Shown: in pieces, positions 13,181-32,000 of the stretch
Layout: every line of letters starts with the position of its first letter
Position numbering within the stretch: the first letter of the stretch is position 1
From: Corynebacterium amycolatum
Lineage (GTDB): Bacteria > Actinomycetota > Actinomycetes > Mycobacteriales > Mycobacteriaceae
Length of the DNA stretch: 32,000 bases
Reading direction: 5' to 3' (one strand)
Assembly (NCBI RefSeq): GCF_049243625.1
Contig: NZ_CP046975.1
Made by a program: the position numbers and the translations under genes
Notes under the pieces: model-generated
What the model was told of the DNA's origin: nothing
Seen by the model: only the letters and a program-made list of their open reading frames with translations
Database searches by the model: none

Positions 13181-13206
13181 AACAGCCAGCACAAATCAAC
13201 AGCCAC

Positions 13207-14049: not shown

Positions 14050-14052
14050 CTA

Positions 14053-15970: not shown

Positions 15971-16629
15971 CGGATGCGTTTCAGGTCCGCTCCGGTGCCG
16001 AGCTGCTCCGTCCGGCGTTTCGCCAGTGCCGTCGGCCGAATGCCGAACGGCTCCGCGACCGAGCGCGGCGTCGCACCCCTCAGCAGCACCTCCGCCGCCA
16101 GCAGAATGCCGGACAGTGCGATGCCGTTGAGGATCTCTCCGCGCAGCGCCATCGCCACCGCTTCCTCGACGTCAATCCACGACGCAGTCATGTCCGCTTC
16201 CTCATCGTGGGCTTCCGGCTTATCGACGGCACGGAGACCCCTAGCCAAGTAGATCCGGACCGCTTCCTCTGCGAAGCCGGGCGAGCTGAACATATCGGTA
16301 AGCAGGGACCAGGACTCGGCCTCCAGCCCGGCTTCCTCCACTAGCTCACGCTTGGCGGCCTCCAGCGGGTCTTCGTCTGCGACGTCGAGGAGCCCGGCCG
16401 GCAATTCCACCAGACGCTCCCCTGCCGCCTGCCGCCACTGATTGAGCAGGTAGAGGCGGTTATTCTCATCTGCGACAACGACCGCGACAGCGCCGAAATG
16501 CTCCACAATCTCACGAGCGGACACATTCCCACCCGGCATTCGCACCTGGTCGCGGCGGATCGCGAGAATAGGTGCCTCGAGAACAATCTCGGATTCAACA
16601 ACGTCAAATTGGTGCGCCATGAGTTTCAC
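15967..16629 (-). CDS. NUDIX hydrolase (ADP-ribose pyrophosphatase-like)
   Basis: 220-aa ORF with the Nudix box GLLDVADEDPLEAAKRELVEEAGL (REUxEExGU matched). Confidence 0.85.
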   Translation of the reverse strand: MKLMAHQFDVVESEIVLEAPILAIRRDQVRMPGGNVSAREIVEHFGAVAVVVADENNRLYLLNQWRQAAGERLVELPAGLLDVADEDPLEAAKRELVEEAGLEAESWSLLTDMFSSPGFAEEAVRIYLARGLRAVDKPEAHDEEADMTASWIDVEEAVAMALRGEILNGIALSGILLAAEVLLRGATPRSVAEPFGIRPTALAKRRTEQLGTGADLKRIR

Positions 16630-16668
16630 TCTAATAGGTAGGCCGGATTCACCCTCGCGGAGCCAAGG

Positions 16669-18306
<1,638 letters not shown>

Positions 18307-18373
18307 TCAGAATATCGCCTGCGCGGGTATGAGCGCAAGCTATTTTTCACAATGGCGGAGATTACTTACGCAA

Positions 18374-18583
18374 CTAGGTAAGACTCTCAAAAATCATGGT
18401 CGCCTGGATACGGTCCCCGCCCATCAGTCCCTTACTGCCCGAAGAGGCAGTAGTAATCGTGTGCAACCGGAACCCCTGCGAAGCCTTGTCGTTGATTACC
18501 CTCTCAAGCTCTGTCAGATTAGCCGAGCCGGTACCGATGAACTTTTCCTTCAGAACCACCTGAAGAACTTCATAATGAGGCAT
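18374..18583 (-). CDS. Small DUF4177-like protein
   Basis: I place the start at the internal ATG at 18583 (MPHYEVLQVVLKEK...), which has a GGAGGG SD about 7 nt upstream. The 69-aa product follows the DUF4177 pattern: YE..V...K, LE..IN..A.QGF.L, MIF. The upstream 25 codons of the track ORF lack support. Confidence 0.55.
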   Translation of the reverse strand: MPHYEVLQVVLKEKFIGTGSANLTELERVINDKASQGFRLHTITTASSGSKGLMGGDRIQATMIFESLT

Positions 18584-18676
18584 TTTCCGCCCTCCGTTAA
18601 AGTAATTTTCAATATTGCAAGCAAAACAATACTCGGGCGGATGCATAAACGCGACCACGTCGTTACCCTCGGGGCT

Positions 18677-19195
18677 ATGACTGACCTAACGAATAAGAAC
18701 ATTGCAGTTTTGGCCACTAACGGATTCGAGGACTCCGAGCTGACGAGCCCGGCGGGAGCCGTGAAGGATGCCGGTGCGACCGTGCACGTTATCTCCACCG
18801 AAGATGGCTCCATTGAGGGCAAGAATGGCACGAAGGTGGATGTCGATAAGCTCACCAGCAGCGTTTCTGCTGATGATTATGATGCCCTGATTCTGCCTGG
18901 CGGCACCGTAAATGCAGACCAGATTCGCATCGATAAGGATGCCGTAGCCCTGGTAAAGGCATTCGCCGCAGCCGACAAGCCAATCGGCGTGATTTGCCAC
19001 GGCGGTTGGATTCTCACCGATGCGGATGTGCTTAAGGGCCGCACTATTACCTCCTACATCAGCGTCAAGACTGACCTTATTAACGCTGGTGCCAACTGGG
19101 TCGATGAGGAAGTTGTCGTTGACGGCAACCTGATTTCCTCCCGCACCCCAGCTGACCTCGAGGCTTTCAACAAGGCTCTCGTGGAGAACTTCTAA
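18677..19195 (+). CDS. DJ-1/PfpI family protein (type 1 glutamine amidotransferase-like; YhbO/general stress protein type)
   Basis: Start at the ATG at 18677 (MTDLTNKNIAVLATNGFEDSEL..., 172 aa). Nucleophile elbow PIGVICHGGWIL; LISSRTPADL. The 332-aa track ORF is an unsupported upstream extension overlapping the DUF4177 gene region. Confidence 0.85.
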   Translation: MTDLTNKNIAVLATNGFEDSELTSPAGAVKDAGATVHVISTEDGSIEGKNGTKVDVDKLTSSVSADDYDALILPGGTVNADQIRIDKDAVALVKAFAAADKPIGVICHGGWILTDADVLKGRTITSYISVKTDLINAGANWVDEEVVVDGNLISSRTPADLEAFNKALVENF

Positions 19196-19235
19196 GCCAC
19201 TCGGCTTTTAGCATCACCAAAGGACGGCTGTTGCC

Positions 19236-19994
19236 ATGAGTTCATATTGGGATAACCCAAAGTCGCTGTGGGATCAGATTCCACAGCACAATGAGGAAGA
19301 TGTTTCCGAGCAGCAGCCTTCCACGCCGGAACAGCCTTCCGCGGCCGAACAGCCTGCCGCGGCTGCACAGCTTCCGCCACAGCAAGGGCGCTATCAGGGA
19401 TTGCTCTCGCACAACAGCATCGTTATCCAGCAGATTCGAAACTTCATGGCGGATGATTTCGACATCCTGGATACCGAGGGCAATTGCATCGGCAAGATTG
19501 AAACTACTGGTGGCACGCTGAGCCGCATGTTTATGGGCTCTCGTCGCCTGACAGTTTCCGAGCCAGACGGCACTCCGGTATTCGTTATTACCGATCCGAC
19601 CGATCTTGCCCTTGACCGTTACGAGGTCTACTACCCCGCCCCGCATGCGACAGCCCCTGAAGGCCAGCAGCAAGATGGAGCAGAGTCATCGCGCCTTTTG
19701 GCCACTATTCAGCAGAAGTTTGCGTTCTTTAAGCGGCGGCTGGAGATTTCCATCCCCGGTTTTGCCAATTGCGAGGTCGACGGCGACGTCTGGCATTACG
19801 ACGCCACTTTTATGATCAACGACGTCAGAGTCGCCCAGATGTCACGAAAGTGGTCGGGGTTTACAAATTTCCTATCCGGCAATGAGCGTTACATGCTCCA
19901 GCTCAAAGATGATTTGCCGCCACAATTGCGCGCGTCGATCATTGGTGCCGCCATTGCCCTGGATTTGATGGCGAAAAAGGCGCAATCCGACTAG
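19236..19994 (+). CDS. Phospholipid scramblase / LURP-one-related family protein with a Pro/Gln/Ala-rich N-terminal tail
   Basis: 252-aa ORF. The pattern IVIQQIRNFMADDFDILDTEGNCIGKIET...RRLTVSEPDGTPVFVITDP...VAQMSRKWSGF...ERYMLQL...IIGAAIALDL matches bacterial scramblase-family proteins. Confidence 0.65.
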   Translation: MSSYWDNPKSLWDQIPQHNEEDVSEQQPSTPEQPSAAEQPAAAAQLPPQQGRYQGLLSHNSIVIQQIRNFMADDFDILDTEGNCIGKIETTGGTLSRMFMGSRRLTVSEPDGTPVFVITDPTDLALDRYEVYYPAPHATAPEGQQQDGAESSRLLATIQQKFAFFKRRLEISIPGFANCEVDGDVWHYDATFMINDVRVAQMSRKWSGFTNFLSGNERYMLQLKDDLPPQLRASIIGAAIALDLMAKKAQSD

Positions 19995-20049
19995 CTGATT
20001 TCACTGTCGGCTCGCGCCTTTTATCAAGAGCTACTGCTCGCGACTATCT

Positions 20050-21165
20050 CTACCGCGATTCTGCAGCCTGAGCGATGCGTCCGTCGATTTCCGTGATGCC
20101 ATCAGAGACGGCATTGACGTGTTCGGGGCGAACATTAGCGTTGTCATTGATGCCGCCTTCCACAACGGCGGTTACCGGTACACATGGAACCTCAACATTA
20201 CGTCCGAGCGCATTCGCTACCAGTGCAATTGCCCGCGGTGAGAAAGTCAGCCCGATGTGACCCGATAGATCTGCAGAGCAGCCATCCTGCAGCAGAATGT
20301 TGTTGGAAGTCGGTGCGTTCCACTGGCTTGCAGCCATTGGCGTGACGGCTTCATCAACCTGAGTCGAGATTGCAACATAGTTGACACCCGGCTGCTCCAA
20401 GCCGCCCTCATTCATCTTGGCCATGAACTCGCTGTGCTGCAGCAGATCCACCAGGCTCGGGCTGACAATGACACCCGCAGCCTTGTCACCAGCATTGCCG
20501 AACTGGTTGAGTTCCTCCAAACCATAGGAGATACCGAGCAGCGATGTGCCGTGCAGCACGCCCGCCAGGGACACTACGGTGCCAATTCCCCGGCCCTGCT
20601 CCTGCTTGGCGTAAGCGGCAGCCAAGGTGCCACCTGCAGAGTGACCAACAATGTCAACTTCGGTCGCTCCGGTTTCCGCCTTGAGGGTTTCAATCTTCGC
20701 AGTCAGCTCTGCCAAAGCGGTATCCAACGGGGTCATGTTACGCATGGTTGGAATAGATCCCAGCACCGAAAACTCATCAGGGCCTAGCTTGCCGACGTTA
20801 AATGCGTACAGACACTTCCCCATTGCCTTTAGCTCCGGTGCCATGCGGGCATAGGTCTGGTAGGCGTTCGAGTTCATGCCGTGGATCATGACCACCGGAT
20901 TCTCACCAGGAGCAGGAACACACTGCACATTTGTCCCCTCGGGACTGATGTTTTCCGTCATCCCCTGGTTGACCATGACGGTGGGGAAATCATTTGCCTT
21001 TGGCCCCCAGTCACCCATTTCGGTCCAGGACAGGACCTGATCATTATCAGTTGCCGAAGCCGGTGCGGCAGCCGCGATGGGAGCCGCCGCCAGAGCGACA
21101 CCAGCTGCGGCTGCTAGGGCCGTGGCCGAACGCGCCAGTTTTGTGAATACTCCTTGAGTGCCCAT
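20050..21165 (-). CDS. Secreted alpha/beta-hydrolase lipase/esterase
   Basis: 371-aa ORF. The N-terminal signal peptide is KLARSATALAAAAGVALAAAPIAAAAPASA. The nucleophile elbow is VDIVGHSAGG (G-H-S-x-G), with an oxyanion-region VVMIHGM. Confidence 0.8.
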   Translation of the reverse strand: MGTQGVFTKLARSATALAAAAGVALAAAPIAAAAPASATDNDQVLSWTEMGDWGPKANDFPTVMVNQGMTENISPEGTNVQCVPAPGENPVVMIHGMNSNAYQTYARMAPELKAMGKCLYAFNVGKLGPDEFSVLGSIPTMRNMTPLDTALAELTAKIETLKAETGATEVDIVGHSAGGTLAAAYAKQEQGRGIGTVVSLAGVLHGTSLLGISYGLEELNQFGNAGDKAAGVIVSPSLVDLLQHSEFMAKMNEGGLEQPGVNYVAISTQVDEAVTPMAASQWNAPTSNNILLQDGCSADLSGHIGLTFSPRAIALVANALGRNVEVPCVPVTAVVEGGINDNANVRPEHVNAVSDGITEIDGRIAQAAESR

Positions 21166-21583
21166 GATTACTCCTTGCGTAGAACAGTGAACAGTAAAAC
21201 GCTTTCAATAAGAATTACGGCATGGGCAAGAGCCAGTAATTACAGGCTATGAATCGCAATCGTACTCTGAAAGGCGATCAATGAAAGCCTCTCAAAGGGG
21301 TGAATAAAAAGTAAACTAAATATAACTATAATGCTATTCACTTACAAGCCCGCAGGCTTTTAAAGTGATATCGACCACAGGCCAAAACAAGCCCTACTTT
21401 CTTTGCAATCCCACGGGATTGCTGCCGAAGCCCAAATCGCCGGTGAGATTAAACACCTGTTCCACAATCATGTCGGACCATCATCAATGCGGGGCCTTAC
21501 ACCTCCAGCGAGGAAACCACGTCACTGATAGCAGAACTCAATGAAAACACCTTTTCACCTGCCCGTACAGTAAGGTATTTCAC

Positions 21584-22090
21584 ATGCACAAACGACACGT
21601 TTTCGCCCTCGCACTGACTATTCCAGCACTGTGCCTTTCGGCTTGCTCCAACGGAGAACCAGAAAAAGCACCGGAACCGACTACCGTTACAAAAACTGTC
21701 ACCAGCCCAGAAAGCAGCACAGAATCGACGACGCAATCCACCACCAAGACCCCTAACCCGTCAACACCCCCGGCCCGGACGACAGAAAGCTCGAGACCTA
21801 CCGGTTACACCGGCGCACCCAACGGCGAGCCGACAGCTATAAACAAAACGATTTCGCATTGCGCGAAATCCTCGCAGGGACTCTACGAGCAGGGCACCGC
21901 CTGGTTTACCGACGGCACCTCCGGCTGGACGCAATATTGCGCCAACAATTTCTATGATGGCCCTTCCGCAAACACTGCCCCAGAACCTCAGAACACCGAG
22001 CCGTCCCCGTGGGTTCAAGGCCAAATCGACTGGGCCGATTGCCTGAACTCTGGCCATTCTGAGGAAGAGTGTCGCGCGATGTTGAATTAA
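21584..22090 (+). CDS. Lipoprotein of unknown function (Thr/Pro-rich linker, 4-Cys C-terminal domain)
   Basis: 168-aa ORF. The signal peptide ends in the lipobox LSAC (MHKRHVFALALTIPALCLSAC). The region after the lipobox Cys is low-complexity and T/P/S-rich. Confidence 0.7.
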   Translation: MHKRHVFALALTIPALCLSACSNGEPEKAPEPTTVTKTVTSPESSTESTTQSTTKTPNPSTPPARTTESSRPTGYTGAPNGEPTAINKTISHCAKSSQGLYEQGTAWFTDGTSGWTQYCANNFYDGPSANTAPEPQNTEPSPWVQGQIDWADCLNSGHSEEECRAMLN

Positions 22091-22268
22091 GAAGCCGCTG
22101 CCACCTTCAACGAGAAACATTCGCAGCGACAGATTCACCAATTCAATTCATAGCCACCACCGCCCCAAAAATCCTCACATTTTTCTACCGCACGCCCTCC
22201 CCAGCCTGCAGCGAGATCGGTGACGCGTTGCCCCCGCGCCGTCGTCACCGAGAAGTTCGCCTTACTCG

Positions 22269-23209
22269 CTAACTCTCCAAACGCTCCAGAACCAGCGCAG
22301 CGACTTCATCAATTTTCTCTGCATAGCCAGTGCGCTGGTTCAGCTGAGTTCCCCGCACGCCATCGGTTGCTTGCAGGTCTGCAATTGGTGAATGGCTGTC
22401 CTGAGCAGTCGCCGGCATCGAGTACATATGCGGCACATGCCCAATCAGGTACTGGTCACACGAATGCCCGAGGCTATCGCCGATCCGCTTTGCTTCGTCG
22501 TCAAACTTGCCGCGGAATCGTTCAAACGCTCCGACAAGCTGCTCTTTACCATTTGAGCACCTTTTCACGTATTCCAGCGTTGTGTAGCCAAGGTACTGAA
22601 GCCCACGCCCGTCGTGCCCGAGCAACCGAAGCTTTCGAGTTTTCTTCGAAATATCTGGCGAGTAGTTCCTCCACTGGGCAAGATTCCCCTCGGAAATTTC
22701 TCTGTCCTCAGTCACCCACTCGTTGAACCACTTGGCGAGGTTTCCAAAGACATGGAAGCTAAACAGGTCGGTTGACGTCGGAGTAACGAAGGGTTCGCAG
22801 CCCAGAAGTACGGTGCGATTGAAAGGGCCTAACGACGGTCCCACGTCGTAGAAGATGTAGTCGTACCGATCTTCATCCTCCATAGCCACAGCCAACTGCC
22901 CGGCCCAGTGGATTCGACGAAAGTCGCCGGTCTTCTTGGCTAGCGATGACTGCCATGCGTCACTCATGACATCTTCATGTTGGAAAGTGCCGGGTGCCCT
23001 GGCAGGACATCGACACCAAACCGCTCCGAGCGCACCGGCCGGATGTCGGGCTCGATATCGGTCTCGCCCTCCCGTAGCGAGATAAACAGCGAATAGACGG
23101 TTTTAGCCAACGAATCTCGCTCGGCCGGCTCATCATTCTTGCTGCTCAGGTAGATCTCCTCATGCTGCTGTTCAATCAGCATGAGTTGTGTGGCCCTCCT
23201 GCCGACAGG
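22269..23209 (-). pseudogene. ParA/MinD-like ATPase remnant: the 5' end with Walker A is missing and the body is split over two frames
   Basis: There are two fragments. The 72-aa ORF at 22964-23182 contains FGVDVLPGHPALS. The 232-aa ORF at 22269-22967 contains YDYIFYDVGPSLGPFNRTVLLGCEPFVTPTSTDLFS, the ParA Walker B / switch region. They meet at an ATGA junction in different frames. The open frame upstream of 23182 reads only PVGRRATQL before an in-frame stop at 23210-23212, 20 nt from the mrr stop codon. No KGGxGKT is encoded. Confidence 0.6.
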
Positions 23210-23231
23210 TCACACTCGGCTGTGAGATGCC

Positions 23232-24252
23232 CTACTGATCCTCTTCGAAGAAATCTTCATCCAGTTCATAAGGAGTAATCTCGTGTGCTTTTTGGACCGC
23301 GACGCCATAGTCGAGCATGAGCGCGGATAGTTTCACGCCATCAATCAGAACGATTGTTCCGTGCCTATAGTTCGCTGCGGCTTCTACAGCGCCAGAAGTA
23401 AAACGAGACGTAGTAATAAATACGCCCTTATTCGCACCTCGGGAATCTAGAGCGCCAATAAAGTTCCTAATCTCCCAATTGGCGACAGAATTCGAGTCAG
23501 CATAGCGTTTGGCCTGTACATAGACCTTCCCAAGGCCCAAGGCATCTTCACGAATTACTCCATCGACGCCGCCATCATTCGACCGTCCCAGATGCTGCTT
23601 CTGGCCGTGGACACCGCCGTATCCCATCGTCCACAGCAGTTCAATAACTGCACGTTCAAAGAACTCCGGAGTAGAGTCCTGCAGGCGCTGCCGCAAATCA
23701 GTTGAAACCTTCGCGTTCCAATCAGCTTGCGCATCCTCCACCATCTCTAATGGCGATTTTTCCGGACTACTCGGAACCTCACCCCCATGCAGCTAAAGTT
23801 CTTCCGCTACGCTCACCCGAGGATGCCAGTAGATTAGCCGCTGCATTGCCGGAGCTCTTACGCTCCCGAATCTCATCTTGGTATTGCCGCCACTTGGGCC
23901 ACTCCAGCATGTCCTTTTCGGAGTACTCCGCAAGGTTTCTTGAATCAACCTCGCGTCCGTCGTCCGAAATCACGTATCGTCCGCGCTTAGGTCGAAACAC
24001 CAAACCAGCCTGAGCAAATGAGGAACAAGCCCATGCAATTCGATTTCTATAGCGTGGCTGCCCAGACGGAACTGTCTCCGCTAAAACATCAGGAGAAAGC
24101 CCCATGTATCTGACTACTTCGTCGCCTAGTTCACTAATTCGACGCTCTCGCCCGTCAGTTAATACTCGCAGTACTGCAGGACGGAACTGATCGATTATCG
24201 GAGTGTTGTCGGAATCCATAAGAAAACTATATCCACCTAGCGGCCCTGCCAT
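23232..24252 (-). pseudogene. mrr: Mrr-type (type IV, modification-dependent) restriction endonuclease, frameshifted
   Basis: The N-terminal wHTH Mrr_N part is the 157-aa ORF at 23779-24252 (PIIDQFRPAVLRVL...PSGQPRYRNRIAWACSSFAQAGLV...RGRYVISDDG). The catalytic Mrr_cat part is the 170-aa ORF at 23232-23744 (FERAVIELLWTMGYG...SNDGGVDGVI...KVYVQAKRY...KGVFITTSRFT...LIDG). The catalytic frame stays open upstream to 23792. The two frames meet at the CCCCC run at 23782-23786. Removing one G/C gives a continuous ...LAAWGEVPSSPEKSPLEMVEDAQ... protein. Confidence 0.78.
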
Positions 24253-24294
24253 ATAGGTGTCCCCTTTCGATTCCTAAAGCTTTGTAACGGTAGA

Positions 24295-27200
24295 TTGAAC
24301 TCCATGACCGCAACTTCTGAAGCCCCGTCGCACGGGACCACTCCTGATGCTTTCGATCAGCTTTCTCCTGGCGTCACCATTAAGGTTCGTGACGAGTACT
24401 GGCTTGTAACCCACGTCACCAGGTCGAGTGACGGCTTCAAAGTTAAAGCGCGCGGCATTTCTGACTATGTGCGCGATACCACGGCTACCTTTTACACAGC
24501 GCTTGATTGCGACCTCGAAGTTTTCGATCCAGCAAAGATAACGGTTACTGCGGACAACTCCGCTGGCTTCCGTAAGTCTCGCCTCTGGCTTGAGTCCACA
24601 ATCCGTCAGACGCCTGTGCCGCTGTACCAGAACAACCTTGAGGTCTCCACGCGCATGTTGGCCGACCCGCTTGACTATCAGCTCAACGCAGTCCGCAAGG
24701 CGCTCAGCCCTGAGCACATTCGTCCGCGCATTTTGCTTGCCGACGCCGTCGGGCTTGGCAAGACTCTTGAAATCGGCATGATTGTTGCCGAGCTCATTCG
24801 CCGTGGCCGCGGAGAACGCATTCTGGTTGTTACTCCTAAGCATGTGCTTGAACAATTCCAGCAGGAAATGTGGACTCGTTTTGCGATTCCGCTCGTTCGC
24901 CTCGATTCCCAGGGCATTCAAAAGGTTCGCCAGAAGCTACCTGCTTCTAAAAACCCTTTTTCTTACTTTCCTCGCGTCATTGTCTCGATGGACACTCTGA
25001 AGTCTGCAAAGTATAAGGCGCAGTTGGAAAAGGTGAATTGGGGCATTGTCGTCATCGACGAGATTCACAATGCCACCAATTCGGGAACCCAGAATAATGA
25101 CCTCGCGCGAACGCTCGCTCCGCGCACTGAGGCACTCATCCTGGCATCGGCGACCCCTCACAATGGCAATCCGGAATCTTTCAAGGAAATCCTCAAACTG
25201 CTGGACCCGCTTGCGGTACGGCCTGATGGTTCCATTGATATGGAGTTGGCGAAGAAACTCATTATCCGCCGCCACCGAAACTCACCTGAGGTCAAGTCCG
25301 TGGTCGGCGCTAAGTGGGCGCCCCGCGAAGAACCTCTCAATATTCCGGTCGAAGCCTCAGCTGAGGAAAACGCTGTAGCTAACGAGCTTCGGGATTCATG
25401 GATTTCAACCACTGATTCGGCTGATAATTCGCGTTCTCATCTTTTTGCATGGACTTTGGTGAAGGCATTCTTGTCGTCGCCAGCTGCGCTCGAAGCATCT
25501 ATTAAGAATCGTTTGCGCACGATTGAAACTCAGTACGGCACAACCAACAATCAAGAACAGCTAGCCTTACAGCGACTCCTTGAGCTCAACTCCCATGTCA
25601 CCTCAGAGGCTTCGAACAAGTATGCCTCATTAGTCAATTATTTGATCGAAACGGTGGGAATCAGCAAGCGCTCCAAGAACCGGGTAGTCATCTTTTCCGA
25701 GCGCGTATCGACGCTGGGCTGGCTGCAGGAAAACCTGATTCGGGATTTAAAGCTCTCCCCTGCCGCGGTCAAAACAATGCACGGCCAAATGTCTGACATC
25801 GAGCAGATGGAGCTTATCGACGAATTCAAACGTACGGATACGAAGCTAAGAGTCCTCATTACCGGCGATGTGGCATCTGAAGGCGTTAATTTACATGCGC
25901 AGTGCCACGACCTCGTTCATTACGATATTCCGTGGTCTCTGATCAGAATTCAGCAGCGCAATGGCCGCATTGACCGATACGGGCAGGAGAACAATCCGCG
26001 TATTGCAGCTCTACTTCTGGATCCTGCTGATGCAGATGCCGTCGGTGAAATTCACGTTCTCACCAAATTGATTGAACGCGAATATGAGGCAAACCAGTTA
26101 CTGGGTGACGCTTCTTCTTTGATGGGACAGCATTCCGCCAAACGTGAAGAAGACGAAATTCGCGATGTCCTTCGCGGCGCTCGCGACTTTGACTCCACTG
26201 TCAAAACTGCACAGCAGATACTCGGTTCCGCTGGTGCGGCCACAAGCGACACCCCCACTCCTGGTTCTGGTAAGCACGCTTCTTCGGCCCCCGCCTCATC
26301 GCCTGAAAAAATGGTTGACGACGAAGAGGATATTGAAGTCCTCCTAGCCAGTTTGTTGGCAAGCCCATCCGCTTCCTCCCCAGATACTTCTTCCGAAGCA
26401 CAGCAGGCATCATCGGAACCTGGCTCGTTCAGCTTGTACCAATCGGAGAAGGACTATCTTGTCGATGCTCTCGCTGAGGCCTTCAATGAGGTTCCGGAGC
26501 AACGTTCCGCTGCCGGAGGCGTGGACTTAACAATTCAAGAAGGCGATATTCTCGAGCTCACACCACCGAGAGATTTACAGCGCCGTTTCGATTACCTCCC
26601 TCAAGATTATGTCTCATATCGGAAGGTCAAAGATCGACTCATGCTCGCTACTTCGCTGCACCGGGGTAACTCTCAGCTGCGAATGGCTCGCGAAGGAAAG
26701 TCGGAGAAGTCCTGGCCAAAGGCTCACTTCCTCGGCCCGCTACACCCAGTAACGGACTGGGCTGTCGACCGTGCGCTGAGTTCCATGGAGCGTTCTCAAA
26801 TACCCGCATTTGCTGGAGCAGTCGATGAGCTGACGATTCTTTTCATGTCGACTCTCACCAACTCACGTGGCCAAGTAATCACGCGTGCTTTCATTGTCGC
26901 GCAGCCTGGCCCATTCGGTTTGGATGCACCTGAGGGAATGCCCCGTGCTATTTGTCGCACTATCTCGGATCCAATTGGTTGGTTGAGGTCCACGGGACTT
27001 GCGGGTGATGCAATTTCTACCGGTACGTTGACCGTGCCTGCGGACGCTGAAGTGCTAGTTCGGGAGGGACTCCGTGAGGCACGATCTCTCACGGATATCT
27101 CAAAGCAAGCTGCGACCGAAGACGCTAATAATCGTACTAATGCTTGGTCCGAATTGGCCGCCAATTGGGAAGCTGATGCGGAGGACCTCCCCGGCACTAT

Positions 27201-27318
27201 GAGCCTTGTCAGGTCTCAACTGTTCGTTAACCAGGAGCGAGAGCTACTGACTGCGTCTATTCCTGAGCGAACGCTGATTCGTCCGCTCGCCGTCATCATC
27301 CCGTCTGCAGAAAAGTAG
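24295..27318 (+). CDS. SNF2-family (SF2) helicase/translocase with a roughly 370-aa C-terminal extension; candidate DISARM DrmD-like protein
   Basis: 1007-aa ORF with a TTG start at 24295 or an ATG at 24304. Motif I is LLADAVGLGKT (GLGKT at 24751-24765). Motif II is VVIDEIH (DEIH at 25057-25068). Motif III is LILASATPHNG. Motif V is ITGDVASEGVNLH. Motif VI is QQRNGRIDRYGQ (25951-25986). The stop codon overlaps the SD of the next gene. Confidence 0.9.
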   Translation: MNSMTATSEAPSHGTTPDAFDQLSPGVTIKVRDEYWLVTHVTRSSDGFKVKARGISDYVRDTTATFYTALDCDLEVFDPAKITVTADNSAGFRKSRLWLESTIRQTPVPLYQNNLEVSTRMLADPLDYQLNAVRKALSPEHIRPRILLADAVGLGKTLEIGMIVAELIRRGRGERILVVTPKHVLEQFQQEMWTRFAIPLVRLDSQGIQKVRQKLPASKNPFSYFPRVIVSMDTLKSAKYKAQLEKVNWGIVVIDEIHNATNSGTQNNDLARTLAPRTEALILASATPHNGNPESFKEILKLLDPLAVRPDGSIDMELAKKLIIRRHRNSPEVKSVVGAKWAPREEPLNIPVEASAEENAVANELRDSWISTTDSADNSRSHLFAWTLVKAFLSSPAALEASIKNRLRTIETQYGTTNNQEQLALQRLLELNSHVTSEASNKYASLVNYLIETVGISKRSKNRVVIFSERVSTLGWLQENLIRDLKLSPAAVKTMHGQMSDIEQMELIDEFKRTDTKLRVLITGDVASEGVNLHAQCHDLVHYDIPWSLIRIQQRNGRIDRYGQENNPRIAALLLDPADADAVGEIHVLTKLIEREYEANQLLGDASSLMGQHSAKREEDEIRDVLRGARDFDSTVKTAQQILGSAGAATSDTPTPGSGKHASSAPASSPEKMVDDEEDIEVLLASLLASPSASSPDTSSEAQQASSEPGSFSLYQSEKDYLVDALAEAFNEVPEQRSAAGGVDLTIQEGDILELTPPRDLQRRFDYLPQDYVSYRKVKDRLMLATSLHRGNSQLRMAREGKSEKSWPKAHFLGPLHPVTDWAVDRALSSMERSQIPAFAGAVDELTILFMSTLTNSRGQVITRAFIVAQPGPFGLDAPEGMPRAICRTISDPIGWLRSTGLAGDAISTGTLTVPADAEVLVREGLREARSLTDISKQAATEDANNRTNAWSELAANWEADAEDLPGTMSLVRSQLFVNQERELLTASIPERTLIRPLAVIIPSAEK

Positions 27319-27327
27319 GAGCATCTC

Positions 27328-30300
27328 ATGGCAAGTTTTGATTCCATCATCAACGTCGACGAGTGGATTAGCGACTACTACCTGACTACTGATGAGAAAA
27401 AGGGCGAGTCGTTCAGTAAGCGAGCCGATGCCGCAATTAAACAATGGAAAGCTGACGATAAGGCAAGCGGCGTCGAGGTTTCACCGTGGGGACGAATGAC
27501 TTCGAACCGCAATCAGCTGCAAACTGCACTGTCGACCATTGATGCCGACGTGAAAATCAGTGTTATCAATGCTGCCGAGCAGATCGAGAAAACGTTCGAC
27601 TATCCCGTTCCAACAGAAGTTTCTATTGACTATTCCGGGGACTCCATCAAATTGTCTGCTGCACGCGATGTGGCAGGAACGACACTTTATTTACGCACTG
27701 AACGGCTTGCCGACGTCGAAGATTTTCCTACCACCAAACTGCTTGAGGCGGCTACTAAGAATGAAAAAACTTGGGACGTCCCGGTCTCAAGAATTATCAC
27801 TGAGGTGTTTTTATCAGAACAACCTCCGACCTTCGTCGTTCTAATTGCAGGCAACATGGTTGTCTTGGCTGAGCGGGAATCGTGGCCCCTCGGCCGATTC
27901 TTAGCAGTCGATGTGGCCCTGGCAGCGGAGCGCAATGATACGAAGGTTCGCGGCGAGTTAAGTCTGGTGGTCGCTTCATTGGCGCGCGAACACATTGAGC
28001 GCGCTGCTGACGGAACAACCTGGTGGCTACAGACGATTGAAGAATCCCGCGAACATGCGGTGAAAGTCTCCGAAGATTTGCGCGAAGCGATTAAAGAGTC
28101 GATTGAGATTATCGGCAACGATGCCCTTAAGCGTTACCGCCATCAAGGTCTCGATATCGATGATGTCGACGGAAATGAGTTGTCCAAGCAGGCTCTACGC
28201 TACCTTTACCGTATACTCTTTTTGCTCTTCGCCGAGGCGTCCCCTGAACTCAATATCCTGCCTACAGGTGTGCCTGACTATGACGAGGGCTATGGACTCG
28301 CTAACCTACGCGACCAGATCTTGGTCGAGCCACCCACCGACCGTGCGGCAAATGGCACATATCTTTATGACAGTCTGAATTTGCTGTTTAACTTGGTCAA
28401 TACCGGTCACGATCCAAATGACCAGGAAAACCCTCTGCATGATGGTCACGCCGAAGAAGGCCTGACCTTCCGCAATCTGTCAGCTGACTTATTTGCGCCC
28501 AGCGCTATCGCATACATCTCTCGATCAAAACTTTCTAATGCTGCGCTTCACCGTGTGCTGCAGAATCTTCTGTTAACTCGTGAAGCTGCAGGGAAAGAAC
28601 GCGGCTATGTCTCCTACGCAACCTTAGGAGTCACCCAGCTGGGACAGGTCTATGAAGGACTGATGTCCTTTACGGGCTCGATTGCCCAAGAAGAGATGTT
28701 TGAAGTCGCGCCGAAAGGAGACGCTTCGAAAGGTTCGTGGCTAGTAACACCTGCGCTCGCAGAAAGCCTTCCATCAGATTCCTTTGTTCAGGAAAAGCTC
28801 GAGGATGGCACCCCTCGGAATCGACGCTATGCACCAGGTGACTTCGTTTTCCGACAGTCGTCCAGAGATCGTGAGCGCTCCGCGTCTTTCTACTCACCAC
28901 CGGTCATTACCGAATTTGTTGTTGGCCAAGCTATCGAGGAGCTCAAGGCCGCTCACCGCATCGATACTGCGGACGATATCCTCACACTCAGTATTTGTGA
29001 GCCGGCGATGGGATCAGGCGCCTTCGCAGTGGAAGCGGTGAATCAGTTAGCGGAGCTCTACCTGAACAAAAAGCAGGAAGAGATTGGGCAAAAGATCGAA
29101 CCAGAGCGTCTTACAGAAGAGTTGCAGAAGGTTAAGGCTTCTATTGCGCTCCATCAGGTTTACGGAGTGGACCTGAATAAAACTGCTGTCGAGCTCGCTG
29201 AAATTTCGTTGTGGCTCGACACAATGTCTGCCGAGCTAAAGGCACCATGGTTCGGGCTACACCTGCGTCACGGTAATTCCCTGATCGGCGCGCAGCGTTC
29301 TACTTTCCCAGCAACTTCGCTGAAAAAACGGGATTACTTAAGAAAAACTCCAAGACACCATTCAGTGGAATCTATTTCCAGTGCAATTGAAAGTGGCCAG
29401 CCAGATTCGTCTGTCGCTGGTCGAGTTCACCACTTCCTTGTTCCATCAACTGGTTGGGGTGCGGCGGCAGATTCGAAGGATCTCAAAGAGGTCGCACCCG
29501 ACGAAGTTGCTTCCATGAAGAATTGGCGCAAGTCCATTCAAAGAGCTTTCACAGCACCTGAGATTAAACAGTTGAAGAAACTAAGTGACCGGGTGGAAAG
29601 ACTGTGGCAACTGGCACTAGTACGCCTGCGTATCGCAGAATCCCAAGTAAGCCGAACCGTTTCGATATGGGGACAAGAAGTTGCTGAAACGGGTCAAGCA
29701 GTCACTCGAGAGCAGATTGAACACGAACTCTTCGGCAACATGGACGGTGCCTATCAGCGTCTGCGCTTAGTGATGGATGCGTGGAATGCACTATGGTTCT
29801 GGCCGCTGACTGAGGTCAGTCTTCTTCCATCAAAGGACGAATGGCTGTCAACACTCGTCGATGCTCTTGGTATTTCTACGGAATCGACGGCCAAAACTGG
29901 CCAGTACTCGATTGGCTATGACCTGCAGTGGGATGAGCTCAATTCTGTGGAGCAGCTGGAGTTCAGTGCACTCCCCTATTCCAAGTTGATTGAGGCGCAT
30001 CCTTGGCTGCAAACCGCTCAACAAGTTTCAGCTGACCAGGCGTTTTTCCATTGGGATCTTGATTTCGCTGCTGTGATGGCTGATGGAGGCTTCGATTTCC
30101 AGGTCGGTAACCCGCCTTGGGTTCGCCCGCGCACCGATGTCGATGCTCTCTATTCCGAACACGATCCATGGTTTAGTCTTGCTCATAAACCGACTCAGAC
30201 GGATAAAAAGGACCGCAGAAAGCAACTAGCAAACGACGAACGCGTTCTGGCGACCCTCGCACGAGGCTTGTCGGACTCTGTAGTGACTTCTGCTGTGCTG

Positions 30301-31887
30301 GGCGACGCTACTCGCTTCCCGCATTTAGTTGGTCAGCAACCAGATCTCTACCGAGGTTTCATGGAACAAACCTGGGCCAACGCAGCCCATGACGGTATTG
30401 TTTCGCTTATTCACCCGGAGTCTCATTTCACTGAGAAGAAAGCTGCACCGCTTCGCGCGGGTGCCTATCGACGTCTCCGCAGGCATTGGCAGTTCATAAA
30501 TGAACGTGTCTTGTTCGACATCGACCATCACGTATCCTATGGTGTCCATATTTATGGTCCACGCCTAGACGTTCCGCACTTCACCAGTGCCGCATCTCTG
30601 TATCACCCAAAAACAGTTCTCGATTCCCTTCGTCACGATGGAACTGGTCCGCTACCTGGTCTAAAGGACGACAACGACAACTGGGACCTTCGTCCTCACC
30701 GTGATCGCATTATCACGGTAGATATGAAAACTTTGCGACTTTGGCACTCGATTCTCGAGGAACCTGGGACTCCAGTTATCAATTCGAGGACTGTCTATAC
30801 AGTCAACACTGAAGCAGCTGCTGTCTTAGCAAAGCTTGCTGCGGCACCACGCGTAAAGGAACTTGGGCTGCAATTCTCGAACGGCTGGCATGAATCTGCT
30901 GACAAGAAGCGTGGTTATTTCGACACTTCTTGGCAGCATCCAGAGTCATGGAATGATGTCATCCTTCAAGGTCCTCACCTCGGCGTATCGACTCCGATGA
31001 TTAAGCAGCCCAATCCAACAATGAAACATAACCAGGACTGGTCGGAAATTGATCTCGAGGCTATTCCAGAGGACTTCATTCCTGCAACGGCCTATGCCCC
31101 AAATCGTGCAGCAACAGATTATGACTCGACATATACTCACCACACGGGATCCGACGGAGTCATAGTCTCAGATCGTTCAAAATACCGTTTTGCATGGCGC
31201 AAAATGGCAGCGACAACGGGATTCCGTACATTGTATTCTGCGCTGATTCCAAAAGGTTCAGCGATCTCCGGCTCCTCGGTTTCTGGATTGTCGTTAGTTT
31301 CTGATGAGATTTCTGTAGCCACAGGAGCAAGCCTTTCAGCAATCCTCTCTGATTTCGTAATTCGGTCAACTGGGTTAGCAAACCTATACGCCTCAACTAT
31401 TGAGCTGTTACCAGTAACCGACGCAAATGAGTTTAAAAAGACTTTTGTTTCCAACTACCTTCGCCTTAACTGCCTGACTTCTGCATACGCCCCACTGTGG
31501 GAAGAAATCACTGGTGAGCAGTGGACCACGGATACTCCACTGCGGAATGCCAAAGAACGATGGCATGCGCAAAATGAAATTGATGCAATTGTCGCGCTTT
31601 CCCTTGGCGTGACGGCTGATGAACTATGCATGATTTACCGCACCCAGTTCCCTGTGATGCGGCGGTATGACCAGGAAGACCTGTATGACGCGAATGGGCG
31701 AAAGGTTCCGAAGGACATCGCAAAACTCGAAGGAAAACTGAAGCCCGGAGAGGAATTAAGCGAAGAACGGCGGAAATGGACACATCCTCAGTCAGGTGTG
31801 ACATACACTTTTGAGTATCCATTCGCGCCACTAGACCGCGAAGAAGATCTTCGCGCAGCCTACGCACGATTTGAGAAAGAGCTATAA
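27328..31887 (+). CDS. Very large gamma-class N6-adenine DNA methyltransferase (Eco57I/PglX-like architecture); candidate DISARM DrmMI-like protein
   Basis: 1519-aa ORF with an AGGAG SD at 27317-27321, 6 nt before the ATG. The AdoMet motif I is ICEPAMGSGAF (aa 556-566, tgt at 28996). Further motifs are GVDLNKTAVELAEISLWL and HGNSLIG. The catalytic motif IV is FDFQVGNPPW (NPPW at aa 928-931, nt 30109-30120). The C-terminal EIDAIVALSLGVTADELCMIYRTQFPV tail is typical of PglX/type IIG-like methylases. Confidence 0.9.
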   Translation: MASFDSIINVDEWISDYYLTTDEKKGESFSKRADAAIKQWKADDKASGVEVSPWGRMTSNRNQLQTALSTIDADVKISVINAAEQIEKTFDYPVPTEVSIDYSGDSIKLSAARDVAGTTLYLRTERLADVEDFPTTKLLEAATKNEKTWDVPVSRIITEVFLSEQPPTFVVLIAGNMVVLAERESWPLGRFLAVDVALAAERNDTKVRGELSLVVASLAREHIERAADGTTWWLQTIEESREHAVKVSEDLREAIKESIEIIGNDALKRYRHQGLDIDDVDGNELSKQALRYLYRILFLLFAEASPELNILPTGVPDYDEGYGLANLRDQILVEPPTDRAANGTYLYDSLNLLFNLVNTGHDPNDQENPLHDGHAEEGLTFRNLSADLFAPSAIAYISRSKLSNAALHRVLQNLLLTREAAGKERGYVSYATLGVTQLGQVYEGLMSFTGSIAQEEMFEVAPKGDASKGSWLVTPALAESLPSDSFVQEKLEDGTPRNRRYAPGDFVFRQSSRDRERSASFYSPPVITEFVVGQAIEELKAAHRIDTADDILTLSICEPAMGSGAFAVEAVNQLAELYLNKKQEEIGQKIEPERLTEELQKVKASIALHQVYGVDLNKTAVELAEISLWLDTMSAELKAPWFGLHLRHGNSLIGAQRSTFPATSLKKRDYLRKTPRHHSVESISSAIESGQPDSSVAGRVHHFLVPSTGWGAAADSKDLKEVAPDEVASMKNWRKSIQRAFTAPEIKQLKKLSDRVERLWQLALVRLRIAESQVSRTVSIWGQEVAETGQAVTREQIEHELFGNMDGAYQRLRLVMDAWNALWFWPLTEVSLLPSKDEWLSTLVDALGISTESTAKTGQYSIGYDLQWDELNSVEQLEFSALPYSKLIEAHPWLQTAQQVSADQAFFHWDLDFAAVMADGGFDFQVGNPPWVRPRTDVDALYSEHDPWFSLAHKPTQTDKKDRRKQLANDERVLATLARGLSDSVVTSAVLGDATRFPHLVGQQPDLYRGFMEQTWANAAHDGIVSLIHPESHFTEKKAAPLRAGAYRRLRRHWQFINERVLFDIDHHVSYGVHIYGPRLDVPHFTSAASLYHPKTVLDSLRHDGTGPLPGLKDDNDNWDLRPHRDRIITVDMKTLRLWHSILEEPGTPVINSRTVYTVNTEAAAVLAKLAAAPRVKELGLQFSNGWHESADKKRGYFDTSWQHPESWNDVILQGPHLGVSTPMIKQPNPTMKHNQDWSEIDLEAIPEDFIPATAYAPNRAATDYDSTYTHHTGSDGVIVSDRSKYRFAWRKMAATTGFRTLYSALIPKGSAISGSSVSGLSLVSDEISVATGASLSAILSDFVIRSTGLANLYASTIELLPVTDANEFKKTFVSNYLRLNCLTSAYAPLWEEITGEQWTTDTPLRNAKERWHAQNEIDAIVALSLGVTADELCMIYRTQFPVMRRYDQEDLYDANGRKVPKDIAKLEGKLKPGEELSEERRKWTHPQSGVTYTFEYPFAPLDREEDLRAAYARFEKEL

Positions 31888-31892
31888 AAGCC

Positions 31893-32000
31893 GTGTCCAG
31901 CCTTCTGCCTGCCTACGCTGCCGAGCATGTACTCGATGGGTTGAGTGAGTACTTGACCACGAGTTTTTCCCTCGCGGAACGAAATACTGCTGAAAATCTG
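31893..32000 (+). CDS. Third gene of the helicase-methylase operon; first 36 codons only, function unknown
   Basis: The GTG at 31893 lies 5 nt after the methylase TAA. The frame is open to the window edge: VSSLLPAYAAEHVLDGLSEYLTTSFSLAERNTAENL. Same strand, same low-GC composition. It is not in the ORF track because it is truncated. Confidence 0.5.
   Translation, partial: MSSLLPAYAAEHVLDGLSEYLTTSFSLAERNTAENL

What the first reader, a model, noticed from the sequence alone, without database searches (positions are those of the whole stretch)
24295..32000. Low-GC operon of an SNF2 helicase, a 1519-aa N6-adenine methylase and a truncated third gene: class 1 DISARM-like or an undescribed helicase-methylase defence module
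Seen in the sequence:
- Three co-directional genes are separated by only 9 nt and 5 nt, and the helicase stop lies inside the methylase SD.
- The first protein has a complete SNF2/SF2 motif set (GLGKT, DEIH, SAT, QQRNGRIDRYGQ).
- The second is a gamma-class adenine methylase (motif I ...GSGAF, then NPPW).
- No restriction nuclease gene belongs to the operon.
- The flanks are decayed defence genes (mrr and a ParA-like ATPase).
- GC is about 20 points below the core, by spot counts.

Established knowledge: class 1 DISARM consists of DrmD (SNF2 helicase), DrmMI (N6-adenine methylase), DrmA (helicase), DrmB (DUF1998) and DrmC (PLD nuclease). Only the first two types are visible here, so the assignment is an inference.

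Alternatives I cannot exclude:
- A disaggregated type ISP-like enzyme. Type ISP fuses an Mrr-like nuclease, an SF2 ATPase and a gamma methylase-TRD, and an mrr gene sits immediately upstream here.
- A PglX-like methylase recruited to a non-BREX system, since no PglZ or BrxC lies upstream.
- A mobile-element anti-restriction helicase/methylase pair like phage P1 DarB.

If the downstream genes are not DrmA/B/C, this is a genuinely new architecture.
Basis: partly seen in the sequence, partly recalled or inferred. Interest (0 to 1): 0.85.

Follow-up and report, generated by a model that had tools for sequence, protein, structure and literature searches.

The report
ARMADA type II anti-phage operon
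The three genes are the first part of a four-gene ARMADA type II anti-phage defence operon (armABCD), a DISARM/Druantia relative described and tested in E. coli in 2025, so this Corynebacterium copy is a further member of a known system, not a new architecture.

Summary
Window 24304-27318 encodes an intact SNF2 helicase and 27328-31887 a 1519-aa gamma-class N6-adenine methylase. A third gene starts at 31893; the gaps are 9 and 5 nt. GC is about 10 points below the core, not 20.

A contig 100% identical to the window over 14.7 kb shows the rest. The third gene encodes a 2117-aa YprA-family helicase with a fused DUF1998/MZB domain. A 781-aa UvrD-like helicase follows. There is no PLD nuclease.

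This is the ARMADA type II operon armA-armB-armC-armD (Bell et al. 2025, PMC12458937). All four proteins align nearly full-length with the E. coli EDL933 ArmA-D reference proteins (437, 671, 421+218 and 280 bits). ArmC matches E. coli ArmC far better than the neighbouring E. coli DruE.

A confident model of the ArmD N-terminus has a YoeB/YafQ/RelE toxin fold, the type II hallmark. The same gene order recurs in C. amycolatum SK46, C. falsenii, C. glutamicum, C. uterequi and Flaviflexus.

DISARM class 1 membership fails: scores lie below NCBIfam cut-offs, DrmA and DrmB are not separate, and DrmC is absent. Modest interest.

The parts
24304..27318 (+). armA: SNF2/RapA-like (BrxHII/DrmD-like) helicase, 1004 aa. 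Walker A is K153 (GLGKT) and Walker B is D252 (DEIH).
   Evidence: Pfam SNF2-rel_dom and Helicase_C. PADLOC DrmD 304 bits, BrxHI/BrxHII 178-187 bits. BLASTP to E. coli ArmA WP_001041505.1: 437 bits, 35% identity over 839 aa, with K136 and D236 aligned. Best PDB match is RapA at 100 bits.
27328..31887 (+). armB: PglX/DrmMI-like gamma-class N6-adenine DNA methyltransferase, 1519 aa. Motif I is G562 (GSGAF) and motif IV is N928 (NPPW).
   Evidence: Pfam Eco57I and MmeI_Mtase. PADLOC REase_MTase_IIG model PDLC03611 matched full length at 2050 bits; DrmMI 191 bits. BLASTP to E. coli ArmB WP_001229642.1: 671 bits, 31% identity over 1618 columns, with N971 and G605 aligned.
31097..31456 (+). Hypervariable patch inside armB (about aa 1256-1376), a candidate target-recognition region.
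   Evidence: DNA does not align with C. amycolatum SK46 here. Protein identity falls to 74% and then 48% per 100-aa block, against 93-99% in the flanks.
31893..32000 (+). 5' end (36 codons) of armC. The full gene is 6354 nt and encodes a 2117-aa YprA-family DExH helicase. It has CxxC zinc modules, a fused OB-CON-DUF1998/MZB region and a C-terminal Vsr-like nuclease motif. The gene runs off the window.
   Evidence: L001 is 100% identical to window 17328-32000. Pfam DEAD, Helicase_C and MZB. PADLOC DruE3 287 bits. BLASTP to E. coli ArmC WP_000937974.1 gives 421+218 bits, against 125+100 bits to E. coli DruE. armD (781 aa) follows 23 nt later in L001 20943-23288, outside the window.
23232..24252 (-). 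Frameshifted mrr (Mrr_N ORF plus Mrr_cat ORF), divergent neighbour of armA. It is not part of the conserved module.
   Evidence: Pfam Mrr_N and Mrr_cat fall on separate ORFs in different frames. A +1 nt insertion in a C-run separates them relative to intact SK46 mrr. mrr is absent next to armABCD in C. glutamicum, C. uterequi and Flaviflexus.

Best explanation
The finding is the 5' portion (armA, armB and the first 36 codons of armC) of a complete chromosomal ARMADA type II anti-phage operon, armA-armB-armC-armD. The host is a Corynebacterium of the amycolatum group.

Proposed working (inferred):
1. ArmB, a PglX-like N6-adenine methyltransferase, acts as the sequence-specificity and self-marking component. 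A strain-variable C-terminal patch would set its motif.
2. ArmA, an SNF2/RapA-like translocase, works with ArmB, as BrxHII and DrmD do in BREX and DISARM.
3. ArmC, a giant YprA-family DExH helicase with zinc modules, a fused DUF1998 canopy and a Vsr-type nuclease domain, is the effector. It loads on invading or replicating phage DNA, unwinds it and cuts it.
4. [quoted passage not shown]
5. Defence is direct rather than abortive.

Shown here: gene content, order and spacing; orthology to the E. coli system; intact catalytic motifs; the RelE-type fold of the ArmD N-terminus.

Shown by others, in E. coli only: protection against phages; all four genes needed; loss of protection on mutating ArmA Walker A or B, ArmC Walker A or B, ArmD Walker A, or the ArmB NPPW motif; non-abortive phenotype.

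Inferred: the division of labour between the proteins, methylation as the self mark, and activity in Corynebacterium.
For: Continuation of the window:
- It is known from L001, 100% identical over 14,673 nt.
- It holds a 2117-aa DEAD+Helicase_C+MZB protein, then a 781-aa UvrD-like helicase.

Literature definition:
- It is abundant in Actinomycetota.

Pairwise BLASTP to the paper's own E. coli reference proteins (fetched; accessions confirmed):
- ArmA 437 bits.
- ArmB 671 bits.
- ArmC 421+218 bits, against 125+100 bits to DruE.
- ArmD 280 bits, including the N-terminus.

Domain tests:
- The ArmD N-terminus model has pLDDT 90.2. Its top Foldseek PDB hits are YoeB/ParE, YafQ and RelK toxins (E 1e-4 to 1e-3, probability 1.00, TM 0.55-0.68).
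- The ArmC C-terminal domain keeps an invariant S-x-L-E...Q...PD...DG...H...D...R pattern shared with E. coli ArmC.
- 6 of 14 members weakly hit the PD-(D/E)xK family PF18741.

Conservation and function:
- The same four-gene order, in unrelated flanks, occurs in C. amycolatum SK46 and C. falsenii. It also occurs in C. glutamicum, C. uterequi and Flaviflexus.
- Functional data from E. coli are.
Against: - No experiment exists for any actinobacterial ARMADA.
- No methylation motif is known for any ArmB in the papers I read.
- The Vsr fold of ArmC was not confirmed structurally. The 404-aa C-terminal model (pLDDT 82) gave no significant PDB match; the best was TnsA at E 0.098. hhalign to E. coli Vsr was not significant.
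- armC and armD lie outside the window, so their presence in this exact genome rests on the identical contig.
- Decay occurs in relatives: armC is split in CP008913.1 and armB is split in C. uterequi. Activity of any given copy cannot be assumed.
Confidence: 0.9

Rival explanations
1. Class 1 DISARM (DrmD, DrmMI, DrmA, DrmB, DrmC), possibly with DrmA and DrmB fused and DrmC lost.
For: ArmA's best PADLOC and NCBIfam hits are DrmD (304 and 328 bits). ArmB hits DrmMI at 191 bits. The third protein has a helicase plus DUF1998, the DrmA+DrmB content.
Against: - ArmA is below the NCBIfam DrmD cut-off (328 against 610). ArmC scores 28.6 against the DrmA cut-off of 999.
- ArmC scores DruE 287 bits but DrmA only 59 bits in PADLOC.
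- DUF1998 is fused rather than on a separate protein.
- No PLD gene lies within 7.6 kb downstream.
- An extra RelE-UvrD gene is conserved.
- The YprA phylogeny in PMC12458937 places ARMADA with Druantia, not with DISARM.
Confidence: 0.04
2. A chance juxtaposition of independent systems: a stand-alone type IIG/ISP-like restriction-modification enzyme (with the upstream mrr as a detached nuclease), next to a Druantia-like DruE helicase and unrelated helicases.
For: - PADLOC's 'REase_MTase_IIG' model PDLC03611 matches ArmB end to end at 2050 bits.
- The best PADLOC hit of the third protein is DruE.
- mrr lies immediately upstream.
Against: - Gaps of 9, 5 and 23 nt, and the same four-gene order with different flanks in six taxa including E. 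coli.
- All four genes are individually required in E. coli.
- mrr is on the opposite strand, frameshifted here, and absent from the other loci.
- No nuclease domain was detected in ArmB: its N-terminal 501 aa give no Pfam hit even at E up to 10, and the whole protein has no PDB sequence hit.
- No DruH or other Druantia partner is present.
Confidence: 0.03
3. Mobile-element cargo with an anti-restriction or other offensive role (a phage P1 DarB-like helicase/methylase pair), not host defence.
For: The region is a low-GC island and therefore horizontally acquired. DarB also combines methylase and helicase domains (from general knowledge).
Against: - No integrase, phage structural or conjugation genes occur from pyrG to mctB/steA/recN.
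- Here the helicase and methylase are separate proteins, with two further helicases.
- The orthologous E. coli operon protects against phages.
Confidence: 0.02

Closest known systems
ARMADA type II (armABCD) of E. coli NCTC 12900 / EDL933 OI-172 / ATCC 8739 (Bell et al. 2025, PMC12458937; mBio 2026, PMC13463889)
   Same: - Four genes in the same order and orientation, with very short gaps.
- All four proteins align nearly full-length at 28-40% identity.
- Every residue mutated in the E. coli study is conserved: ArmA K136/D236 as K153/D252, ArmB G605/N971 as G562/N928, ArmC K110/D234 as K113/D238, ArmD K266/D454 as K327/D535.
- The ArmC CxxC zinc modules and the first Vsr-like motif are conserved.
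- The ArmD N-terminus has a RelE-superfamily fold.
   Different: - Actinobacterial host at 52-53% GC.
- ArmB is 125 aa shorter.
- ArmD has a roughly 80-aa longer, acidic low-complexity linker after the RelE-like domain.
- The last ~270 aa of ArmC do not align with E. coli, so the status of the extra inactive EEP and Vsr domains is unclear.
- No adjacent Druantia III or Zorya II, and no tRNA-linked satellite-like element. The island lies between pyrG and mctB/recN.
- Untested experimentally.
DISARM class 1 (DrmD-DrmMI-DrmA-DrmB-DrmC; Ofir et al. 2018)
   Same: An SNF2 helicase and an N6-adenine methylase precede a helicase-plus-DUF1998 module. It is a defence-island system with a methylase but no classical restriction enzyme.
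   Different: - Helicase and DUF1998 are fused in one YprA-family protein of the Druantia-like branch.
- The nuclease is a fused Vsr-type domain instead of the separate PLD protein DrmC.
- There is an extra RelE-UvrD helicase.
- Scores are below the curated DrmD and DrmA cut-offs.
Druantia type III (DruH-DruE)
   Same: ArmC and DruE are roughly 2100-aa YprA-family helicases with a fused DUF1998, and each is the other's closest relative outside its own family. DruE is ArmC's best PADLOC hit and its best solved-structure hit (9tu7, which is E. coli DruE).
   Different: - No DruH is present.
- Druantia III has no methylase, SNF2 helicase or UvrD partner.
- DruE carries PLD-like rather than Vsr-like nuclease domains.
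- The BLASTP score to DruE is about a third of that to ArmC.
BREX (PglX with BrxHII)
   Same: The authors describe the ArmA/ArmB pair as a BrxHII-like helicase plus a PglX-like methylase. ArmA hits PADLOC BrxHI/BrxHII at 178-187 bits.
   Different: - No PglZ, BrxC, BrxA, BrxB or BrxL is present.
- ArmB scores only 29 bits against NCBIfam BREX-1 PglX, cut-off 500.

Membership tests
ARMADA type II | Strict gene order: BrxHII/RapA-like SNF2 helicase, PglX-like methylase, YprA-like helicase, GajB/UvrD-like helicase, all co-directional. | tested here: met
   Window genes plus the identical contig L001 run 6977-9991, 10001-14560, 14566-20919 and 20943-23288, all on the + strand with gaps of 9, 5 and 23 nt. 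The order is the same in five other taxa and in E. coli.
ARMADA type II | The YprA-family helicase (ArmC) has OB-CON-DUF1998 fused, and it lies closer to ARMADA ArmC than to Druantia DruE or DISARM DrmA. | tested here: met
   Pfam DEAD, Helicase_C and MZB occur in one 2117-aa protein. BLASTP gives 421+218 bits to the paper's type II representative WP_000937974.1, against 125+100 bits to E. coli DruE. PADLOC DrmA scores only 59 bits. No tree was built and no type I representative was available.
ARMADA type II | [quoted passage not shown] | tested here: met
   UvrD-helicase and UvrD_C domains and GajB PADLOC hits. The N-terminal 109 aa modelled at pLDDT 90.2. The top 20 Foldseek PDB hits are all RelE/ParE-superfamily toxins such as YoeB, YafQ and RelK. 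The N-terminus aligns with that of E. coli ArmD.
ARMADA type II | ArmC C-terminal predicted active Vsr-type PD-(D/E)xK nuclease domain. | tested here: inconclusive
   An invariant S-L-E, Q, P-D, D-G, H, D, R pattern is shared by 13 actinobacterial homologues and E. coli ArmC. Six of 14 members hit PF18741 REase_MTES_1575 weakly, best E 0.0026. However, Foldseek on the 404-aa model was not significant (TnsA, E 0.098), and hhalign to E. coli Vsr was also not significant.
ARMADA type II | ArmC insertions: BrxA-like domain, beta-barrel zinc module, MarR-like domain, and two zinc modules in the OB region. | tested here: inconclusive
   CxxC motifs lie at 528, 634, 981, 1391, 1412, 1521 and 1668. 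Those visible in the alignment match the cysteine motifs of E. coli ArmC. The folds of the BrxA-like and MarR-like domains were not modelled.
ARMADA type II | Anti-phage protection that requires all four genes. | not testable with these tools
   Shown only for the E. coli systems.
DISARM class 1 | DrmA helicase and DrmB (DUF1998) as separate proteins of the DISARM branch. | tested here: not met
   They are fused in a single protein. NCBIfam DrmA scores 28.6 bits against a cut-off of 999, and PADLOC DrmA 59 bits against DruE 287 bits.
DISARM class 1 | DrmC PLD-family nuclease. | tested here: not met
   No PLD gene occurs in the operon or within 7.6 kb downstream of armD.
DISARM class 1 | DrmD SNF2 helicase and DrmMI adenine methylase. 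| tested here: inconclusive
   These are the best hits but are sub-threshold or partial. NCBIfam DrmD scores 328 bits against a cut-off of 610. PADLOC DrmMI scores 191 bits, and the best stretch shown covers only aa 501-657.
Druantia type III | DruH partner, and a DruE with C-terminal PLD-like domains. | tested here: not met
   No DruH-like gene flanks the operon. The ArmC C-terminus carries a Vsr-like rather than a PLD motif.
Type IIG / type ISP restriction-modification | A nuclease domain fused to the methylase-TRD polypeptide. | tested here: not met
   No nuclease family was detected in ArmB. Pfam finds only methylase domains, the N-terminal 501 aa give no hit, and there is no PDB sequence hit. 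The full-length PADLOC 'IIG' hit reflects how that model was labelled, not a detected nuclease. Absence of a very divergent nuclease fold was not excluded by structure prediction.
BREX | PglZ phosphatase and BrxC ATPase alongside PglX. | tested here: not met
   Neither is present in the 26 kb around the operon.

The most novel reading that the evidence does not exclude
ArmB carries a swappable specificity cassette (aa ~1256-1376) that differs sharply between two otherwise ~93%-identical amycolatum-group operons. In this reading, a change of ArmB specificity creates conflict with the divergently transcribed, methylation-dependent Mrr nuclease. Mrr is intact in SK46 but knocked out by a homopolymer frameshift in the strain carrying this armB allele. 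If so, ARMADA would be a methylation-marking self/non-self system whose motif evolves by cassette exchange. It would also shape which type IV restriction enzymes a genome can tolerate.
Probability: 0.12. Interest if true: 0.55.

Novelty: new member of a known kind. Interest (0 to 1): 0.3.

Why it matters
It shows that what looks like an orphan helicase-methylase pair is a complete copy of a recently defined defence system. It also extends, with sequence and fold evidence, the ARMADA type II definition from E. coli to Corynebacterium.

Full-length ArmC homologues are common in that genus, including C. glutamicum, C. efficiens and skin and clinical species. This bears on phage resistance in industrial fermentation, and on phage therapy or transformation barriers in clinical corynebacteria.

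These loci are still annotated only as 'DEAD/DEAH box helicase', 'class I SAM-dependent methyltransferase' or '3'-5' exonuclease'. NCBIfam and PADLOC 2.0 have no ARMADA models, and PADLOC would label the parts as DrmD, type IIG and DruE.

The strain-variable patch in ArmB offers a concrete handle on an open question: whether and how ARMADA uses methylation for self-recognition.

Tried and rejected
- DISARM class 1 was rejected. The curated cut-offs are not reached, no DrmC is present, and DUF1998 is fused.
- Druantia was rejected. There is no DruH, and similarity to DruE is much weaker than to ArmC.
- Type IIG/ISP restriction-modification was rejected. No nuclease was found in ArmB, and mrr is not conserved with the module.
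- A Pfam scan of the ArmC C-terminus, ArmD N-terminus, ArmB N-terminus and ArmA C-terminus at E up to 10 found nothing useful.
- A PDB sequence search with the ArmD N-terminus and with ArmB found nothing.
The fold search settled that point instead.
- Foldseek with the whole 404-aa ArmC C-terminal model was not significant.
- The promoter and terminator scan gave counts no higher than in shuffled sequence.
- Rfam found only a distant tRNA-Pro.
- The genome-contig scan with a single protein returned only two loci. Wider context came from the look-up of encoding contigs.
- The paper's supplementary tables held as text do not list Corynebacterium. I could not check whether this exact protein is in their 52,000-member set.


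Full report
**1. Observation**

The ORF table and translations confirm three co-directional genes.
- The first is a 1007-codon ORF from TTG 24295. Gene callers use ATG 24304, giving 1004 aa, ending at 27318.
- The second is a 1519-codon ORF at 27328-31887.
- The third opens at GTG 31893 and runs off the window.

The gaps are 9 and 5 nt. The helicase stop TAG overlaps an AGGAG Shine-Dalgarno sequence 6 nt before the methylase ATG.

Pfam finds SNF2-rel_dom and Helicase_C in protein 1, and Eco57I and MmeI_Mtase in protein 2.

The composition claim is overstated. The operon is 51.9% GC within the window and 52.9% over its full length. The core (1-18300) is 62.1%, so the drop is about 10 points, not 20.

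**2. What lies downstream**

The exact methylase sequence occurs on 22 public contigs. One of them, L001 (GCA_054653755.1), is 100.000% identical to window 17328-32000 over 14,673 nt. I take it as the continuation.
- The third gene encodes a 2117-aa protein with DEAD, Helicase_C and MZB (DUF1998) domains.
- 23 nt later comes a 781-aa UvrD-like helicase whose first ~300 residues are unassigned by Pfam.
- No PLD gene follows.

Further downstream, on the opposite strand, lie an AAA_15/21 ATPase and a C5 DNA methylase. Then come the housekeeping genes mctB, steA, recN and nadK. The low-GC island therefore sits between pyrG (window 16669-18300) and mctB. It contains no integrase, phage or conjugation genes.

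**3. Identification**

PADLOC (2023 models) labels the four proteins piecemeal:
- DrmD, 304 bits.
- 'REase_MTase_IIG', 2050 bits full length, with DrmMI at 191 bits.
- DruE3, 287 bits, with DrmA at only 59 bits.
- GajB-like UvrD helicase.

A literature search found that this combination was named ARMADA type II in September 2025 (Bell et al., PMC12458937).
- ArmA is a BrxHII/RapA-like SNF2 helicase.
- ArmB is a PglX-like methyltransferase.
- ArmC is a YprA-like helicase with a fused OB-CON-DUF1998 module and a C-terminal Vsr-type nuclease.

The paper reports a 'strict gene order' and high abundance in Actinomycetota and Pseudomonadota. In E. coli the system protected against 13 of 80 phages and did so without abortive infection. 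All four genes were needed. Protection was abolished by Walker A or B mutations in ArmA and ArmC, by the Walker A mutation in ArmD, and by the NPPW mutation in ArmB. The ArmD Walker B (D454N) and ArmB GxG (G605A) mutations caused only partial loss. An independent study in EHEC EDL933 confirmed this in the native host (PMC13463889).

**4. Direct test against the reference system**

I fetched the EDL933 O-island 172 locus. Its proteins are the very accessions used as references in the paper's Table S2. BLASTP of the Corynebacterium proteins gave:

| Protein | Score | Identity and span |
|---|---|---|
| ArmA | 437 bits | 35% over 839 aa |
| ArmB | 671 bits | 31% over 1618 columns |
| ArmC | 421 + 218 bits | 28% over 1442 aa, 40% over 329 aa |
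| ArmC against E. coli DruE | 125 + 100 bits | (adjacent gene, for comparison) |
| ArmD | 280 bits | 30% over 797 columns, N-terminus included |

Every residue mutated in the E. coli study is conserved here:
- ArmA K153 and D252.
- ArmB G562 and N928.
- ArmC K113 and D238.
- ArmD K327 and D535.

**5. Domain-level membership tests**

*ArmD N-terminus.* Neither Pfam nor a PDB sequence search sees anything. An AlphaFold2 model was built from 19 actinobacterial homologues; its first row is 99% identical to this ArmD. It reached pLDDT 90.2. Its top Foldseek hits in the PDB are YoeB/ParE, YafQ and RelK toxins, with E 1e-4 to 1e-3, probability 1.00 and TM 0.55-0.68. The type II hallmark domain is therefore present. 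A conserved D47, R49, R51, T52, R54, R60, H82, D83 set leaves open that it is catalytic.

*ArmC C-terminus.* Thirteen homologues and E. coli ArmC share invariant S-x-L-E, Q, P-D, D-G, H, D and R positions. From general knowledge, this pattern resembles Vsr/DUF559-type PD-(D/E)xK nucleases. Six of 14 members weakly hit the PD-(D/E)xK family PF18741. The fold was not confirmed, however. The 404-aa multi-domain model (pLDDT 82) gave only a non-significant TnsA match, and hhalign to Vsr was not significant. I mark this feature inconclusive.

*ArmC zinc motifs.* The CxxC motifs at 528, 634, 981, 1391, 1412, 1521 and 1668 match cysteine motifs of E. coli ArmC wherever the shown alignment covers them.

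**6. Conservation**

Full-length ArmC and ArmD homologues are numerous in Corynebacterium. Species include C. glutamicum, C. efficiens, C. minutissimum, C. uterequi and C. falsenii. Homologues also occur in other Actinomycetota.

The armA-armB-armC-armD order recurs, with entirely different flanking genes, in:
- C. amycolatum SK46 and C. falsenii.
- C. glutamicum, C. uterequi and Flaviflexus huanghaiensis.

It behaves as a self-contained four-gene module. mrr is not part of it.

**7. Rivals**

*DISARM class 1.* It fails on defining features. DrmA and DrmB are not separate, DrmC is absent, and scores lie below curated NCBIfam cut-offs (DrmD 328 against 610; DrmA 28.6 against 999).

*Druantia III.* It fails for lack of DruH and much weaker similarity to DruE.

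*Type IIG/ISP.* This reading rests only on the label of a PADLOC model. No nuclease is detectable in ArmB.

*DarB-like mobile-element role.* It has no contextual support.

**8. Mechanism**

The mechanism of ARMADA itself is unresolved. No ArmB methylation motif is reported in the papers I read, and no ARMADA component has a solved structure. The best PDB relative of ArmC, 9tu7, is E. coli DruE.

By analogy with DISARM, BREX and Druantia III, and consistent with the mutational data, I propose the following.
- ArmB provides site specificity and probably self-marking.
- ArmA is its translocase partner.
- ArmC is the helicase-nuclease effector acting on phage DNA.
- ArmD is a required accessory motor with a RelE-type module.

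Only the gene requirements and the non-abortive phenotype are shown, and only in E. coli. The rest is inference.

**9. Verdict**

This is a real, intact and correctly delimited defence operon. It is not a new architecture but a new, untested actinobacterial member of ARMADA type II.

Their stated refutation criterion (no DrmA, DrmB and DrmC) is met, and the 'new architecture' this would once have implied has since been described.

Interest is modest at 0.3. The most useful leads are two: the sharply variable patch in ArmB between near-identical operons, and the decay of neighbouring mrr.

Noticed in passing
window 31097-31456 (armB aa ~1256-1376): Against C. amycolatum SK46 the operon is 92-93% identical in DNA. 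This ~360-nt stretch of armB does not align at all, and protein identity drops to 74% and then 48% per 100-aa block, with flanks at 93-99%. It looks like a swapped target-recognition cassette. This echoes the remark that armB is the variable gene among E. coli ARMADA loci.
   Followed up: partly
window 23232-24252 (-) and 22269-23182 (-): mrr is split into Mrr_N and Mrr_cat ORFs by a +1 nt insertion in a C-run near 23782. The adjacent ParA-like gene is split 232+72 aa by a 1-nt deletion near 22977. Both are intact in C. amycolatum SK46 (365-aa and 304-aa ORFs). The same breaks occur in several independent assemblies, so they are not sequencing errors. Mrr cuts methylated DNA. Its loss in a genome with an m6A methylase (ArmB) and a nearby C5 methylase may reflect conflict, but this is speculative.
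   Followed up: partly
L002 14566-20918 (CP008913.1); L015 5442-9991 (C. uterequi CP011546.1): Individual ARMADA genes are pseudogenised in relatives. armC is split into 627+1454 aa in CP008913.1, although its armB is identical to the window's. armB is split into 828+702 aa in C. uterequi.
   Followed up: no
L011 19200-22189 (-), downstream of armD and outside the window: A 633-aa AAA_15/AAA_23/AAA_21 ATPase and a 357-aa C5 DNA methylase (PF00145) form a convergent pair just after armD. They may be a second defence or modification module in the same island, which ends at mctB/steA/recN/nadK. In SK46, the ORF listing shows no ORF of 250 aa or more in the equivalent interval, so its content there may differ or be decayed.
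   Followed up: no
L014 18887-26303 (C. glutamicum CP012194.1): In C. glutamicum, armABCD is followed directly by a 217-aa protein, a 1233-aa protein and a DEAD+YjiV_N+Helicase_C+MZB protein of more than 1600 aa. This looks like a Druantia III druH/druE pair, the same ARMADA II plus Druantia III pairing shown to be synergistic in E. coli. The window's strain lacks it.
   Followed up: no
window 18301-24303: The low-GC island (54%) starts right after pyrG, about 6 kb before armA. It carries non-defence cargo: a DUF4177 protein, a DJ-1/PfpI protein, a LOR/scramblase-like protein, a class 2 lipase/alpha-beta hydrolase (20050-21165, -) and a lipoprotein-like 168-aa ORF (21584-22090, LSAC lipobox, Thr/Pro/Ser-rich). 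The 1-kb bin 21001-22000 has a strong AT skew of 0.22.
   Followed up: partly
window 3484-3558 (-): The only RNA gene in the window is tRNA-Pro (GGG). It lies about 15 kb from the island, so the island is not tRNA-associated, unlike the E. coli ARMADA islands.
   Followed up: yes
ArmD aa ~100-290 (L001 21240-21810): Between the RelE-like domain and the UvrD core, ArmD has an acidic Ala/Glu/Gln-rich low-complexity linker. A conserved helical segment follows (consensus ...W(E/Q)xDA(I/L)xGLxAG(M/Y)(S/T)(I/V)xE(V/I)...). It has no family assignment and is about 80 aa longer than in E. coli.
   Followed up: no
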